This document shows, one piece after another, positions 10,222 to 63,839 of a stretch of DNA of 64,000 nucleotides (positions are counted from its first letter, which is position 1; each line of letters begins with the position of its first letter). A program made the position numbers and the translations under genes. Source of the stretch: Eledone cirrhosa (Eukaryota). The stretch is from positions 6,696,001-6,760,000 of the forward strand of contig OZ024754.1 of assembly GCA_964016885.1 (NCBI GenBank), given 5' to 3'. The notes under the pieces are model-generated. The model did not search any database, had not been told where the DNA came from, and worked only from the letters and a program-made list of their open reading frames with translations.

Positions 10222-10413
10222 AATTTATCCCGGGGTCAATCGGGGATAACCACAGTAAGTAAGGTACTCAATACATAGCAAAGTATACATATTTAATATA
10301 AAAATGGCTTCTACAGGACTAGAACTGTTTCATTCGGGAGAAATCATCAGGAAGGTCTGATGATTTCTCCCGAATGAAACAGTTCTAGTCCTGTAGAAGC
10401 TATTTCTATATTT
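10220..10413. mobile_element. Family A hammerhead mini-element in (TA)n, head-to-head palindrome
   Basis: Same element at 29949-30144, 31756-31950, 34381-34532, 50000-50193, 50225-50551 and 63550-63697. Confidence 0.8.
10308..10354 (-). ncRNA. Type I hammerhead ribozyme, family A
   Basis: Minus: CUUC-CUGAUGA-U-UUC-UCCC-GAA-U-GAAA-CAG-UUCUAGUC-CUG-UA-GAAG. Confidence 0.8.
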
Positions 10414-10422
10414 AAAAAAAAA

Positions 10423-29554: not shown

Positions 29555-29632
29555 GTATGGTGAACTAACTGTTGCGTAACCACTTCTCTATATATATATA
29601 TATATATATATATACAAAATACGGCGATAGCT

Positions 29633-29668
<36 letters not shown>

Positions 29669-29759
29669 AGCTATCGCCGTATTTTGACTAAAGAAATTAA
29701 AGAAATTATTTAGCCTGATAGTGGGGTTAAGAACCCTCGGAGAAATGGAAAAAGATGAG

Positions 29760-29930: not shown

Positions 29931-29964
29931 ACTTGACATATATATATAGTTTTAATATAGATGA

Positions 29965-30013
29965 GATTCTACAGGACTAGAACTGTTTCATTCTTTAGAA
30001 ATCATCAGGAATC
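29965..30013 (-). ncRNA. Type I hammerhead ribozyme, family A
   Basis: Minus: GAUUC-CUGAUGA-U-UUC-UAAA-GAA-U-GAAA-CAG-UUCUAGUC-CUG-UA-GAAUC. Confidence 0.85.
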
Positions 30014-30140
30014 CTGATGATTTCTAAAGAATGAAACAGTTCTAGTCCTGTAGAATCTCATCTATATTAAAACTTGTATACTCTGCAATGTATTGAGTAC
30101 CTTACTTACTGTGGTTACCTCCGATTCAACCCGGAATAAC

Positions 30141-30207
<67 letters not shown>

Positions 30208-30209
<2 letters not shown>

Positions 30210-30393
30210 CGAAGGAAATGTGGTAAGGAACCAGGTGGACCATAACGCACCAAAGTACTCAATACTTGAGGTAGTAGAGTGGGTAATAGGAACCAGTAAG
30301 ACCCCGACAGCTGAGCTCAAGCCGTTTCGACGGCTAATTCTCAGAATTAGCCGTCGAAACGGCTTGAGCTCAGCCGTCGGGGTCTTACTGGTT

Positions 30394-30398
<5 letters not shown>
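30208..30398. mobile_element. Family I mini-element with palindrome 30286-30398 carrying a half hammerhead
   Basis: GAAA-CGGC-UUGAGCUCA-GCCG-UC in the arms; family also at 31107-31230, 53740-53808 and 58260-58490. Confidence 0.65.
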
Positions 30399-30432
<34 letters not shown>

Positions 30433-30837
30433 TGTCTATTTCAACGAATAATTAGCTTCTAGTGTAATTATTATTTTTAGCACAATAGGATTTTGTATAC
30501 CTTTTTGGAAAATTATTTCAAAGAGATATGATACATAGCCTTTTGTATTGCTTATTACAATAAATTACTCTATTTTTTTAGCTGTGTTTAACTTCTCCAA
30601 AACGATATCTATTTCATATATACACAACATGAATGGACCTGTTATTTTTATCTAAAGACATTTTTTTTCCAATTCCACCCCGCCCGTCCCTTCAATCTAT
30701 CTTATTTCTCATTAATTCTTCTGATGAAGGATTAGCGTCCGAAATGTTAATACCCTCTTCCTGCTATATCAAGCGTTAACCTAATATATTCCTTCCATAT
30801 ACTGTACCGTTTGTGTTGTTATTTCTATTTACCTTTT

Positions 30838-30894
<57 letters not shown>

Positions 30895-30981
30895 GGAGGT
30901 GAGTTTTATTGTAGTACAATATGTTGATTTAAAACTGCACTATCCACAAGTGTTTTTTAGCCTTCATATCATGTTCTCCTG

Positions 30982-31048
30982 TTTTATCTGATGAAAACAC
31001 AAATATTATTGCATGATGATGTTTGTTTTTGAAATGCGCATAATAAAA
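30982..31048 (+). ncRNA. Minimal hammerhead ribozyme, family B
   Basis: Same fold as 20947-21013. Confidence 0.8.
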
Positions 31049-31320
31049 TACATGGAACTCCTTTAACCATCTTTTGATCTTATATTATATATATATATAT
31101 ATATATAACGAAGGAAGTGTGGTAAGGAACCAGGTGGACAATAACGCACCAGAGTACTCAATACTTTGGGTAGTACAGTGGGTAATAGGAAAATGTTCAA
31201 GACCCCGACGGCAGAGCTGAACGTTTTCATATATATGAACCCTCCTCAACTAACTCTGTGGGTGAACCTAATATGACTATATTTTTTGCATCCGTGTGTT
31301 TGTTTTGTTTCATCTATCAA

Positions 31321-31360
<40 letters not shown>

Positions 31361-31698
31361 CCGTCTGCATTTCTGACACGAGATGAATGTCTGACACATC
31401 AAAATTATCCCGTTGTTGAAATTATTCAACAGATAAGATATTTTTTTTCTTTTTAATTAACTTTCAGAGAAATCCACACAGGCCCACACATATACATATT
31501 TATATTTCTCATTATAAATGACAATATTTGCAATTTTCTCAATAATTTAAAATTTTCCCAACTTGCAGAAGATAGCAGAAAAAAAAAAATGGCCATATCT
31601 GGCAGACAATGAAGAAAACATAGAAATTCTGGAATAAAATATTTTATGAAGAATATTAAAAATTGAATTACAGTATCGTTACATTTTCATCAAATGAA

Positions 31699-31756
<58 letters not shown>

Positions 31757-31842
31757 GTAGGTCCCGGGTTGAGTCGGGGATAACCACAGTAAGTAAGGTA
31801 CTCAATACATGGCAGAGTAAAATTTTTTTATTTCATAGAAGG

Positions 31843-31893
31843 AGCTTCTACAGGACTAGTACTGTTTCATTCAGATGAAATCTTCAGGAAGCT
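31843..31893 (-). ncRNA. Type I hammerhead ribozyme, family A (mirror copy)
   Basis: Reverse complement of 31890-31940 within a palindrome centred on GAAGCTTC. Confidence 0.85.
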
Positions 31894-31940
31894 TCCTGAA
31901 GATTTCATCTGAATGAAACAGTACTAGTCCTGTAGAAGCT
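31890..31940 (+). ncRNA. Type I hammerhead ribozyme, family A
   Basis: AGCUUC-CUGAAGA-U-UUC-AUCU-GAA-U-GAAA-CAG-UACUAGUC-CUG-UA-GAAGCU. Confidence 0.85.
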
Positions 31941-31951
31941 CCTTCTATAAA

Positions 31952-31982
<31 letters not shown>

Positions 31983-32197
31983 ATTAGAAAGTGAACAACA
32001 CAAAATATAACTATTCCATTACCAAAGGTTTCTGGTTCCCAGACGATAATAATATACGTCTGGATCGGTTGTCAGATGTTATAACATATCTGTCTGACAA
32101 AAACGATCCAGATGTATTATTATCGTATTATTATCGTTTGTGATCCAGAAACCTTTGGTAATGGAGTAGTTATATTTTGTGTTGTTCACTTTCTAAT
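31983..32197. mobile_element. Inverted-repeat mini-element with degenerate hammerhead (family M)
   Basis: Minus 32017-32078: CAU-CUGACAA-..UCCAGACG/CGUCUGGG..-GAAA-CC-UUU-GG-UA-AUG; core G8 lost. Confidence 0.55.
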
Positions 32198-34331: not shown

Positions 34332-34382
<51 letters not shown>

Positions 34383-34395
34383 CAGAGTATAAAGG

Positions 34396-34444
34396 GATTC
34401 CTGATGATTTCTGAAGAATGAAACAGTTCTAGTCCTGTAGAATC
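34396..34444 (+). ncRNA. Type I hammerhead ribozyme, family A
   Basis: GAUUC-CUGAUGA-U-UUC-UGAA-GAA-U-GAAA-CAG-UUCUAGUC-CUG-UA-GAAUC. Confidence 0.85.
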
Positions 34445-34984
34445 TCATCTATATTAAAACCTTTATACTCTGCTATGTCTTGAGTACCTTACTTACTGTG
34501 GTTACCTCCGATTCAACCCGGAATAACGTACCATATATATATATATATGTATATATGCCAAAGTAGTGAAGATATCTTATAAAAATATGATCTGCAATAA
34601 CAGAGAAATTGTGTCTTTTTTTCTGTCAACAATGCATTGTATATAGAGACTAACTCTACATCTACCTATTACATACAGCTATTCTGTCTAGCGTATTGTA
34701 TATAGAGACTAGCTCTACATCTACCTATTACATACAGCTATTCTGTCTAGCGTACAAAAGTAGTTTATGCAAATTACTATATACTTACTTATTTTTCCGT
34801 CGGCTCGAAATGCACTTAATAGAGCGTATATATATGAGAGAGAGAGTGAGTGAGTGAGTGAGTGAGTGAGTGAGTGAGTGAGAGTGTGTGTTTGCACTCA
34901 GACATACATGAATTAAGATAAAAGTGACTTTTACAGAACAGTTTCATTCGTTTGAAATCGCCATTATATATGTGTGTATATATG

Positions 34985-37824: not shown

Positions 37825-38168
37825 ACTGCTGCTTCGCCCAATTATTCCTGGGAGAGACGTGGTGCAGAGCCCTCAAATACGCCCTCTAGCGGGTCCTGTC
37901 AGGAGCAACCGTCTCCAACTTATCTGGCTGGATCCCCAAGCGAGACTAGCCAAGCTCATGGATGTTATTCAACCATCTTGCTCAGGGTCTACCCCTGGGT
38001 CTCTTGCCGCTTGGTTTTGCCCGTAAAATCCGTCCAGCGATTCTTTCCTGAGATATTCTAACTACATGTCCATAGTATCGGAACTGTGATCTCTAAATTC
38101 GGAGAAGTAGCGGTTTTTCCTGGAGTAACTCATTTCTGAGCTACAAATCTGTCCAACGATTCTTTCCT
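37825..38168 (-). mobile_element. RTE-clade LINE 3' fragment
   Basis: Minus: RSQFRYYGHVVRISQERIAGRILRAKPSGKRPRGRP.ARWLNNIHELG.SRLGIQPDKLETVAPDR; homologous to 47365-47655. Confidence 0.8.
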
Positions 38169-40040
38169 GAGACATTCTAACCACATGTCCATAGTATCAG
38201 AGCTGTGATCTCTCACTTCGGAGACATTCTAGCCACATGTCCATAGTATCAGAGCTGTGATCTCTCAATTCGGAGACATTCTAACCACATGTCCATAGTA
38301 TCAGAGCTGTGATCTCTCACTTCGGAGACATTCTAACCACATGTCCATAGTATCAGAGCTGTGATCTCTCAATTCGGAGACATTCTAACCACATGTCCAT
38401 AGTATCAGAGCTGTGATCTCTCACTTCGGAGACATTCTAGCCACATGTCCATAGTATCAGAGCTGTGATCTCTCACTTCGGAGACATTCTAACCACATGT
38501 CCATAGTATCAGAGCTGTGATCTCTCAATTCGGAGACATTCTAACCACATGTCCATAGTATCAGAGCTGTGATCTCTCAATTCGGAGACATTCTAACCAC
38601 ATGTCCATCGTATCAGAGCTGTGATCTCTCAATTCGGAGACATTCTAACCACATGTCCATAGTATCAGAGCTGTGATCTCTCAATTCGGAGACATTCTAG
38701 CCACATGTCCATAGTATCAGAGCTGTGATCTCTCACTTCGGAGACATTCTAACCACATGTCCATAGTATCAGAGCTGTGATCTCTCACTTCGGAGACATT
38801 CTAACCACATGTCCATAGTATCAGAGCTGTGATCTCTAAATTCGAAGACATTCTAACCACATGTCCATAGTATCAGAGCTGTGATCTCTCAATTCGGAGA
38901 CATTCTAACCACATGTCCATAGTATCAGAGCTGTGATCTCTCAATTCAGAGACATTCTAACCACATGTCCATAGTATCAGAGCTGTGATCTCTCAATTCG
39001 GAGACATTCTAACCACATGTCCATAGTATCAGAGCTGTGATCTCTCAATTCGGAGACATTCTAACCACATGTCCATAGTATCAGAGCTGTGATCTCTCAA
39101 TTCGGAGACATTCTAACCACATGTCCATAGTATCAGAGCTGTGATCTCTCAATTCGGAGACATTCTAACCACATGTCCATAGTATCAGAGCTGTGATCTC
39201 TCAATTCGGAGACATTCTAACCACATGTCGATAGTATCAGAGCTGTGATCTCTCAATTCGGAGACATTCTAACCACATGTCCATAGTATCAGAGCTGTGA
39301 TCTCTCAATTCGGAGACATTCTAACCACATGTCCATAGTATCAGAGCTGTGATCTCTCAATTCGGAGACATTCTAACCACATGTCGATAGTATCAGAGCT
39401 GTGATCTCTCAATTCGGAGACATTCTAACCACATGTCCATAGTATCAGAGCTGTGATCTCTCAATTCGGAGACATTCTAACCACATGTCCATAGTATCAG
39501 AGCTGTGATCTCTCACTTCGGAGACATTCTAACCACATGTCCATAGTATCAGAGCTGTGATCTCTCAATTCGGAGACATTCTAGCCACATGTCCATAGTA
39601 TCAGAGCTGTGATCTCTCAATTCGGAGACATTCTAACCACATGTCCATAGTATCAGAGCTGTGATCTCTCAATTCGGAGACATTCTAGCCACATGTCCAT
39701 AGTATCAGAGCTGTGATCTCTCAATTCGGAGACATTCTAGCCACATGTCCATAGTATCAGAGCTGTGATCTCTCACTTCGGAGACATTCTAACCACATGT
39801 CCATAGTATCAGAGCTGTGATCTCTCAATTCGGAGACATTCTAGCCACATGTCCATAGTATCAGAGCTGTGATCTCTCAATTCGGAGACGTTCTAACCAC
39901 ATGTCCATAGTATCAGAGCTGTGATCTCTCAATTCGGAGACGTTCTAACCACATGTCCATAGTATCAGAGCTGTGATCTCTCAATTCGGAGACGTTCTAA
40001 CCACATGTCCATAGTATCAGAGCTGTGATCTCTCAATTCG
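38169..40040. repeat. 52-bp tandem array, 36 copies
   Basis: Unit GAGACATTCTAACCACATGTCCATAGTATCAGAGCTGTGATCTCTCAATTCG; 1872 bp = 36 x 52. Confidence 0.95.
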
Positions 40041-49999: not shown

Positions 50000-50193
50000 T
50001 AGAAATGGCTTCTACAGGACTAAAACTGTTTCATTCTGGAGAAATCATCAGAAGCACTGATGATTTCTGATGATTTCTTCCGAATGAAACAGTTCTAGTC
50101 CTCTGGAAGCTATTTCTATATTAAATATTTATACACTGCTATGTATTGAGTACCTTACTTACTGTGGTTACTCCGATTGAACCCGGGTTAAAC

Positions 50194-50226
<33 letters not shown>

Positions 50227-50549
50227 TGAGATTCCACAGGACTAGAACTGTTTCATTCTTTCGAAATCATCATTCTTTAGAAATGATGATTTCCTGATGA
50301 TTTCTAAAGAATGAAACAGTTCTAGTCCTGTGGAATCTCATCTATATTAAAACGGAATAAGGTATAGATGAAATTCTACAGGACTAGAACTGTTTCATTC
50401 TTTAGAAATCATCAGGAGATTCCTGATGATTTCTAAAGAATGAAACTGTTCTAGTCCTGTAGAATCTCATCTATATTAAAACGTTTATACTCTGCATTGT
50501 ATTGAGTACATTACTTACTGTGGTTACCTCCGATTCAACCCGGAATAAC

Positions 50550-50551
<2 letters not shown>
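50000..50551. mobile_element. Three adjacent family A palindromic insertions
   Basis: Repeated ACAGGACTA.AACTGTTTCATTC and GAATGAAAC.GTTCTAGTCCT arms; near-complete plus-strand hammerhead at 50416-50468 with 7-bp stem I GAGAUUC/GAAUCUC. Confidence 0.8.
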
Positions 50552-50592
<41 letters not shown>

Positions 50593-53733: not shown

Positions 53734-54016
53734 CATGACGGCTGAAGTGCGTCAGGGTCCTAAATATTTTTGTATTACCCACTCTATTACCCCAAGTATC
53801 GAGTACTATATATATATAAGAAAATGAGGGGTTTTTTAAATGAAAAAAAACGAGATGTCCTACGCGAGTGAAAGTATAAGGAAAATATATCGAAAATGCA
53901 ACTAAAGTCTTTTTAAGAATATTTATTTATTTCCTTTACCGGTTTCACAGTTCTTATGCTTTTCAAAAGTAGAATTGAGATGGAAGGTTTGTGGTTTCTC
54001 TCGCATCTCAATTCTA

Positions 54017-54052
54017 CTTTTGAAAAGCATAAGAACTGTGAAACCGGTAAAG
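54017..54052 (+). ncRNA. Minimal hammerhead-like fold with U3-A8 core (family L); mirror copy 53934-53969 (-)
   Basis: CUU-UUGAAAA-GCA-UAAGAAC-UGU-GAAA-CCGG-UA-AAG inside a (TA)n-flanked inverted repeat ~53875-54107. Confidence 0.55.
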
Positions 54053-54551
54053 GAAACAAATATTCTTAAAAAGACTCCAGTTGCATTTTCGGTTTCTTTT
54101 CCTTATATATATATATATATCCAAAACAAGGAGTACACATTTGAATTCAGAGACCCGGAACGAATATCCGAAACCAGTAATCCAACGTTCTAACAAGTTG
54201 CCGAGCTGGTGAAATACCACAGTATATTGCATTATCTGCCAACCATTCCTTGTAAGTATTAGTTTTTAACTGTGGAAGGATAAAGATTCTAATATTGGTA
54301 TTTTTTTTATAATGTGAGAAGAATCGATATAGCTAAAGAAGAATGTAAGAATTTCCTTTAATTCCTGAAGAGAAAATATTGAACAAAGATAAGCACAAAT
54401 ATAGATTATGAACATTTTATTACATCGGAATATTTTAAATCTGCAAATGAAAGTAAACTATAAATTTGAAAGAAATGTCCTACCTTAGTTCCATGGTCGA
54501 TTCCTCGGTAAATAGACGACCGAATTTCATTGGTCAGTTGTATTCATCTAT

Positions 54552-63549: not shown

Positions 63550-63628
63550 TTTTAATATAGAAGAGCTTCTACAGGACTAGAACTGTTTCATTCGTGAGAA
63601 ATCATCAGGAAGCTCTTCTATATTAAAA
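63550..63628 (-). ncRNA. Type I hammerhead ribozyme, family A, with 20-bp stem I
   Basis: Minus: UUUUAAUAUAGAAGAGCUUC-CUGAUGA-U-UUC-UCAC-GAA-U-GAAA-CAG...CUG-UA-GAAGCUCUUCUAUAUUAAAA. Confidence 0.85.
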
Positions 63629-63839
63629 CTGTTATACTCTGCTAAGTATTGAGTACCTTACTTACTGTGGTTACCTCCAATTCAACCCGGAATAACTTAT
63701 CTATCTATATATATATATATATATATACGAGTATATATATATATATAAAGGAACGATCGACTTTAGTCAAATCGGACCGAGGAAACAATGTTTCCATCGG
63801 TCTTTCAAATTGCTAATACTATCTATCGGTCGCAACTCC

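What the first reader, a model, noticed from the sequence alone, without database searches (positions are those of the whole stretch)
29949..31950. Inversion breakpoints of family A coincide with the 5' edge of the ribozyme
In every full family A copy the element stops and flips within a few nt 5' of CUGANGA (centres near 10355, 30011, 31891, 34395, 50055, 50290, 50416 and 63609). This precision is unlike random 5' truncation. It suggests that the template RNA ends there, or that reverse transcriptase stalls and folds back on stem I microhomology. Either would be a ribozyme-defined integration mechanism (inference).
Basis: partly seen in the sequence, partly recalled or inferred. Interest (0 to 1): 0.72.

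Follow-up and report, generated by a model that had tools for sequence, protein, structure and literature searches.

The report
Penelope stubs end at transcription start
These mirror-image repeats are short stubs of a known kind of jumping gene, and thousands of them stop at the same few letters in front of a self-cutting RNA motif, most likely because the element's RNA begins there rather than because the motif cuts there.

Summary
The pile-up is real, but the copies are stubs, not full elements. Family A is the hammerhead-bearing pseudo-LTR of a Hydra-type Penelope-like retroelement whose ORF starts 176 nt after the core. Of 105 arms in a sample not chosen by junction, 53 end at -7..+4 of CUGAUGA, none at -8..-11, 3 at -12..-59, 27 run far upstream and 22 end inside the ribozyme. 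The sharp edge (-6; -7 in an older subfamily) lies 30 nt behind a conserved TATA box and is often preceded by a non-native G, as at a capped RNA start. The cleavage site (+39/+40) shows no pile-up, and other hammerhead families here flip elsewhere (1 of 31 pairs near the core, against 44 of 64). Best reading: reverse transcription starts at two internal sites, runs off the RNA's 5' end, and the two cDNAs join head to head by microhomology. 'The RNA ends there' is supported; 'ribozyme-defined' is not, though the edge is also the base of stem I. The inverted layout is published; the scan reached the same RNA-start idea for another family in this genome. No RNA data were available.

The parts
29948..30013 (-). 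Short inverted arm of a family A stub (-5 to +61), ending in (TA)n
   Evidence: end at +61 is the commonest short-arm end
30009..30013 (.). Head-to-head junction, the interrupted palindrome GA(A/T)TC shared by both arms; stem I 5' strand
   Evidence: 880 strand matches to this junction genome-wide
30009..30144 (+). Long arm of the stub (-5 to about +131) with the 70-nt one-sided tail, ending in (TA)n
30014..30058 (+). Type I hammerhead: CTGATGA 30014-30020, stem II 30021-30032, GAAA 30033-30036, stem III to 30051, predicted cut between 30052 and 30053 (GUA), stem I 3' strand 30053-30058
   Evidence: sequence; fold of the native start-to-+49 stretch of L108 gives the three stems
31764..31949 (-). 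Older-subfamily stub: long arm on minus (31895-31764), short arm on plus (31888-31949), 8-nt perfect palindrome at the junction
10225..10416 (-). Older-subfamily stub, long arm on minus, 6 nt between cores
34376..34531 (+). One-core stub: arm from -5, partner arm is an inverted piece starting near +60
50002..50196 (+). Older-subfamily stub, 5 nt between cores plus a 10-nt duplication
50224..50353 (+). Tail-less stub with duplicated pieces at the junction
50363..50552 (+). Stub with 7 nt between cores; long arm starts at -6 preceded by G
63550..63700 (+). One-core hairpin: short arm on minus from -6, long arm on plus from +40, joined through stem I; the form expected from fold-back or from a cleaved RNA

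Best explanation
The palindromes are head-to-head stubs of the hammerhead-bearing pseudo-LTR of a Hydra-type Penelope-like retroelement, and they likely stop just 5' of the ribozyme core because the element's RNA likely starts there, 30 nt behind a TATA box. Inferred steps: the endonuclease cuts both strands of a (TA)n site; each DNA end primes reverse transcription at one of two internal sites in the 5' UTR (about +131 and +54..+61); both cDNAs run off the capped 5' end at -6, often adding a C; the two 3' ends are trimmed and joined through 1-7 nt of microhomology. Priming at the same sites in the downstream pseudo-LTR gives the long copies, which break at scattered places. Shown: anatomy, end distributions, link to the ORF. 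Inferred: transcription start, cap copying, order of events.
For: (1) Long copies continue upstream through CCAAT, CACCC and TATAAATA motifs and downstream into an ORF at +176 with RT and GIY-YIG motifs (L131, L086). (2) One-sided cliff: 53 of 105 arms at -7..+4, 0 at -8..-11, 3 at -12..-59; all five -7 ends are explained by the partner arm, so the edge is -6; genome counts agree. (3) The edge base is 30 nt after the first T of TATAAATA in the young subfamily (A at -6) and in an older one (G at -7; L333, L339, L349); a TATA match lay at -30..-40 in 19 of 30 long copies of a third variant. (4) Non-native G before the edge: 79 of the first 100 of 2,141 non-native -7 letters; 48 of 100 in A/T-rich joints against 21 native C (by eye); 19 of 25 non-native loci in the older subfamily, where stem I snap-back would give T, seen once. 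Untemplated G marks cap copying in L1/SVA (PMC3287187, passages). (5) The GA(A/T)TC junction reads GAATC in 17 and GATTC in 16 of 33 loci on the tailed strand, as for a mismatch between two annealed ends repaired either way. (6) Other hammerhead families flip elsewhere. (7) A PLE protein cuts and extends both strands, starts internally at two sites and does not need hammerhead cleavage in vitro (PMC11167929, parts 1-2 of 4 read).
Against: No RNA data: the start site is predicted from motifs in AT-rich DNA. The edge is also the exact base of stem I in both subfamilies. Much of the G excess can be read as the partner arm's own base at a microhomology (by my reading about 12 of 19 and about half of 21) or, in the young subfamily, as a 1-nt snap-back on stem I. 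In the third variant the TATA-to-A distance ranges from about 24 to 34 nt. The 17:16 split also fits fold-back from either arm at random. Concordance of the subfamily marker in both arms (0 of 35 A/T-discordant) fits one RNA but also subfamilies active at different times. The tested D. virilis Penelope promoter is TATA-less and starts well upstream of its hammerhead (PMC2377424 passages; PMC4209133 parts 1-2). The sample comes from the first 44 Mb of one contig plus the window. The control families have few pairs (1-10 each) and I did not show that their breaks sit at their own start sites.
Confidence: 0.65

Rival explanations
1. The ribozyme fold sets the break: reverse transcriptase pauses or is released once it has copied stem I, and the cDNA snaps back or switches template on stem I microhomology.
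For: The edge equals the base of stem I at -6 and -7 in two subfamilies. One-core hairpins joined through stem I exist (63609, L111). Some junction inserts read as a few letters of the stem I 3' strand (L253).
Against: Most inverted copies carry the core twice; 27 of 105 arms read through the site; other hammerhead families do not break at their stem I (1 of 31); the three-stem fold is weak (z +1.0) and is not the best fold of the longer RNA; the extra letter in the older subfamily is G, not the T that snap-back predicts.
Confidence: 0.17
2. Self-cleavage or a circular RNA defines the ends: the template is a hammerhead-processed RNA.
For: A few arms start at +36..+40 (4 of 105; window 63609). 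Stem I covaries between subfamilies (A-U to C-G at -4/+43), so the ribozyme was under selection. Processing roles are proposed in PMC4209133.
Against: Cleavage makes a 5' end at +40, not -6; stubs span the cut site; a circle would regenerate native upstream sequence and give long or tandem copies; the +40 starts are also explained by microhomology.
Confidence: 0.05
3. The stub is a palindromic non-autonomous element that arose a few times and is amplified as a unit.
For: 40 best BLAST hits share one junction (query included it); 880 strand matches to it; both arms always share the subfamily marker.
Against: That junction made up 4 of 58 young tailed copies (by eye); junctions are otherwise diverse; the same junction occurs in both subfamilies and in both polarities (17:16); stubs lack the promoter motifs.
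Confidence: 0.07
4. The CAG just 5' of the core is a 3' splice site and the edge reflects a spliced or trans-spliced RNA.
For: A pyrimidine-rich run and CAG precede -4; in D. virilis Penelope the intron ends at the 5' end of helix I (PMC4209133).
Against: 0 of 144 arms joined -4 to an upstream part of the element; the edge is at -6, and the older subfamily has no AG there.
Confidence: 0.04

Closest known systems
Hydra clade of C-terminal EN+ Penelope-like elements, e.g. Hydra-1_Obim (PMC8557442; section 11, passages and supplement look-ups read)
   Same: DKT, CxCX5C linker, CxxC and CxH around E and N, no CCHH, hammerhead in the pseudo-LTR, (TA)n targets; protein visibly alike to Hydra-1_Obim by eye
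   Different: RWR for RWK; a different hammerhead and family; no tree was built; the paper passages I read do not map 5' ends of short copies
Inverted 5'-truncated pLTR with one-sided tail and junction palindromes in EN+ PLEs (PMC3846280, passages; PMC8557442)
   Same: Head-to-head inversion, palindrome at the junction, tail on one arm, TATA and Inr-like motifs in the pLTR
   Different: That paper reads the palindromes as self-priming on an antisense template; here the ends pile at one predicted sense start site, the tail is about 70 nt instead of 30-40, and stubs number in the thousands
Internal initiation in Poseidon of Anolis (PMC11167929, parts 1-2 of 4)
   Same: Two internal start sites bounding the tail, both target strands extended, hammerhead cleavage dispensable
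   Different: There shown in vitro and the start sites lie inside the ORF; here read from genomic ends, in the 5' UTR
Hammerheads of metazoan PLEs (PMC4209133, parts 1-2 of 4)
   Same: Type I motif in pLTRs, mostly in truncated copies, pairs on opposite strands 100-700 bp apart
   Different: Here a full stem III and pairs only 5-8 nt apart; U-U instead of G10.1-C11.1
Full-length L1/SVA insertions with untemplated 5' G (PMC3287187, passages); twin priming of L1 (recalled, not read)
   Same: Extra G at an RNA start; inversion by priming from both DNA ends
   Different: L1 twin priming gives non-overlapping arms; here both arms usually copy the same 60 nt

Membership tests
EN+ Penelope-like element | Single ORF with RT and C-terminal GIY-YIG | tested here: met
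   L131 530-aa open RT part with YRDD; L086 broken ORF runs on into a GIY-YIG part, Pfam PF01541 E=2e-4, 21.9 bits, just under the 22.6 cut-off; no Pfam RT match
EN+ Penelope-like element | Pseudo-LTR: same segment before the ORF and after the 3' UTR | tested here: met
   Hammerhead segment 176 nt before the ATG (L131, L086) and after the ORF end and 3' UTR (L081)
EN+ Penelope-like element | Inverted 5'-truncated copy and one-sided tail | tested here: met
   tail +62..+131
EN+ Penelope-like element | RT groups with PLE RTs in a tree | not tested
   no reference set was on hand; homologues found are unnamed, 13 of 18 carry PF26215 (query was the related L084 ORF, 40% identical)
Hydra clade | DKT, CxCX5C linker, CxxC and CxH in EN, no CCHH | tested here: met
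   read by eye in L086 and L131 translations against section 11
Hydra clade | RWK motif | tested here: inconclusive
   RWR at that place
Hydra clade | Insertion into (TA)n | tested here: met
Hydra clade | Length under 3 kb; monophyly with Hydra families | not tested
   3' UTR holds long microsatellites; no tree
Type I hammerhead ribozyme | CUGANGA, GAAA, UH site, three stems, covariation | tested here: met
   compensatory change at -4/+43; U-U at the base of stem II, as reported for one axolotl family (PMC7229834 passage)
Type I hammerhead ribozyme | Match to an Rfam hammerhead model | tested here: inconclusive
   none among the 150 of 292 matches listed
Type I hammerhead ribozyme | Self-cleavage | not testable with these tools
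   needs an assay
Non-LTR retrozyme | Tandem hammerhead units that begin at the cleavage site | tested here: not met
   stubs are single and inverted; 4 of 105 arms begin at +36..+40
MITE or palindromic element amplified as a unit | Fixed inverted ends and a fixed centre | tested here: not met
   unequal arms, diverse junctions

The most novel reading that the evidence does not exclude
This Penelope-like element starts its mRNA on the first base of its hammerhead, so self-cleavage would strip the cap; its reverse transcriptase primes from both ends of a DNA break at two sites only 61 and 131 nt into one uncut RNA, runs off and copies the cap, and the two strong-stop-like cDNAs are joined head to head. 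Thousands of stubs would then be a fossil map of PLE start sites and of two-ended priming, usable in any genome without RNA data.
Probability: 0.35. Interest if true: 0.65.

Novelty: new member of a known kind. Interest (0 to 1): 0.42.

Why it matters
How Penelope-like elements, the closest relatives of telomerase, make their inverted insertions is an open question. A base-exact 5' edge, two fixed 3' ends and a 50:50 junction mismatch over thousands of copies give sharp predictions for an in vitro system that now exists. It also corrects the tempting reading that the ribozyme cuts out the element: here it sits at the RNA start and is copied uncut. The element type and the inverted layout are known, which caps the score.

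Tried and rejected
Rfam scan: only low-complexity microRNA matches among the 150 listed. The repeat finder was swamped by microsatellites. Twenty random 10-kb stretches held one family A locus, so I sampled by tail and core motifs. The first BLAST query included the junction and made it look fixed; dropped as biased and left out together with L191-L290. Local alignment over-extended 5' ends; replaced by the stricter walk. Sequencing runs: no RNA holder listed; run X20 laid nothing; reads laid on the window junction did not isolate reads of that exact junction. Splicing at CAG: no spliced joints. Cap G: not clean because of partner microhomology; the contexts of L291-L320 were not inspected, so how many of those 48 G are explained by a partner arm is open. 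Paper searches listed nothing that ties short PLE copies to the transcription start or to cap copying; most subscription papers are not in the library, and only one supplement (PMC8557442) was searched. No structure or complex prediction was needed.

Full report
Setting. The window is G000:C14:6696001-6760000 of a 3.0-Gb AT-rich animal genome. Positions are counted from the C of CTGATGA (+1).

Observation. The eight centres are present. Five are two-core palindromes with 5-8 nt between cores, one is complex, two have a single core. Each copy has a long arm ending near +131 and usually a short arm ending at +54..+63, both against (TA)n. The motif is a type I hammerhead: stem I is AGAUUC (-6..-1) with GAAUCU (+40..+45), the predicted cut follows GUA at +39; stem I covaries between subfamilies.

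What the element is. A 23-mer of the core has 31,535 exact matches and a tail 27-mer 12,895. Many copies continue upstream through CCAAT, CACCC and TATAAATA motifs, and some continue downstream into an ORF that starts at +176 (L131, L086). The protein has YRDD, DKT, a CxCX5C linker and a GIY-YIG part with CxxC and CxH and no CCHH, the features given for the Hydra clade (PMC8557442 section 11); Pfam gives only a sub-threshold GIY-YIG match. L081 is a 6.5-kb inverted pair with its centre inside the ORF. So the window copies are stubs of a pseudo-LTR, not full elements.

Where they break. I took 94 of the first 100 listed tail matches and then all 105 distinct young-subfamily arms in the window and L031-L190. 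After moving 8 arms with variant upstream sequence to the long class by eye: 27 long, 3 at -12..-59, 0 at -8..-11, 53 at -7..+4, 22 at +5..+40, of which 4 at +36..+40. The five -7 ends are explained by the partner arm. Genome counts show the same cliff: 15,804 at +1, 11,881 at -5, 6,249 at -9, 4,917 at -12; reverse strand 6,417, 4,658, 1,921, 1,518. Raw reads of two runs show a roughly tenfold depth step there, with the caveat that divergent upstream variants lower the upstream depth.

Is it the ribozyme? The cut site is 45 nt downstream of the edge and shows no pile-up; the stubs cross it. In the same fetched DNA, seven other hammerhead families gave 31 head-to-head pairs, 1 of them centred within -8..+4, most 20-110 nt upstream; family A gave 44 of 64. 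Fold-back on stem I gives a one-core hairpin, seen at 63609 and in L111 but rare. Against my reading, the edge is also the exact base of stem I in both subfamilies examined.

Is it the RNA start? The edge base lies 30 nt after the first T of the TATA box in the young subfamily and in an older one with different sequence and an edge at -7. A non-native G precedes the edge in 79 of 100 listed non-native cases, 48 of 100 A/T-rich joints (by eye) and 19 of 25 non-native loci of the older subfamily, where snap-back would give T (1 of 25; 51 of 78 in the listing, by eye). Seven junctions with G on both arms were inspected. An untemplated G is attributed to cap copying in L1/SVA (PMC3287187, passages). 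About half or more of these G can also be read as the partner's base at a microhomology, so this is suggestive only. No spliced joints were found in 144 arms. No RNA data could be laid.

How the inversion forms. For the window's own junction, 35 junctions in 34 fetched regions were read (of about 470 loci): GAATC 17, GATTC 16, 2 unscored, on the tailed strand; the subfamily marker was never A/T-discordant between arms. This fits two cDNA ends that anneal with a central mismatch, made from one RNA or one source locus; fold-back from either arm and time-separated subfamilies are not excluded. In vitro, a PLE protein cuts and extends both strands and starts at two internal sites, with hammerhead cleavage dispensable (PMC11167929). 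Priming in the 5' UTR copy would give run-off stubs, priming in the downstream copy the long, scattered truncations, which matches the two classes seen.

What is known. Inverted truncated pLTRs, one-sided tails, junction palindromes and TATA/Inr motifs in pLTRs are described (PMC3846280 passages; PMC8557442); hammerhead pairs on opposite strands too (PMC4209133); the Penelope promoter lies in the pLTR (PMC2377424 passages). I read passages of PMC7229834 and part 1 of 5 of bioRxiv 10.64898/2026.07.22.740005. My nine paper searches listed no work that places short PLE copies at the transcription start. Earlier notes of this scan describe PLE stubs in this genome and one reaches the RNA-start reading for another family; I had written that reading before looking, and the Hydra lead came from those notes and was then checked.

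Verdict. Real and genome-wide; a new Hydra-type PLE family in a known layout. The likely cause of the edge is the RNA start (0.65), not ribozyme action. Interest 0.42.

Noticed in passing
window 32402(-)/32538(+), 32831, 55681(-)/55787(+), 30721, 10090(-), 11888(-), 19022, 29521, 20953, 30988, 34244(-): At least seven other hammerhead-bearing, (TA)n-associated families; their inversion centres lie mostly 20-110 nt upstream of the core.
   Followed up: partly
families at window 32538 and 32831; e.g. L026, L121, L133, L164: A conserved 5'-splice-site-like AG/GTATGT about 45-50 nt upstream of the core, possibly a retained PLE intron.
   Followed up: no
G000:C1:83679797-83691719: Tandem array of about 1.08-kb units each holding the family A promoter edge and core (listing); forward-strand excess in counts suggests larger arrays elsewhere.
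   Followed up: no
L084:2128-4590: Open 821-codon frame of a related Hydra-type element, 40% identical to the family A protein over 511 aa.
   Followed up: partly
window 30080-30105 (tail, about +66..+87): A small hairpin is predicted a few bases behind the +61 end, like the start-site hairpins in earlier notes of this scan.
   Followed up: no
L031, L035, L036, L037, L043, L052, L095, L098, L162: An old family A fragment amplified with identical flanks inside a larger subtelomeric repeat.
   Followed up: no
window 38065-39900: 52-bp tandem satellite, about 36 copies at 97-98% identity.
   Followed up: no
window 30280-30398, 29612-29688, 31987-32195, 53924-54062: Further (TA)n-flanked or near-perfect hairpins of other repeat families.
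   Followed up: no
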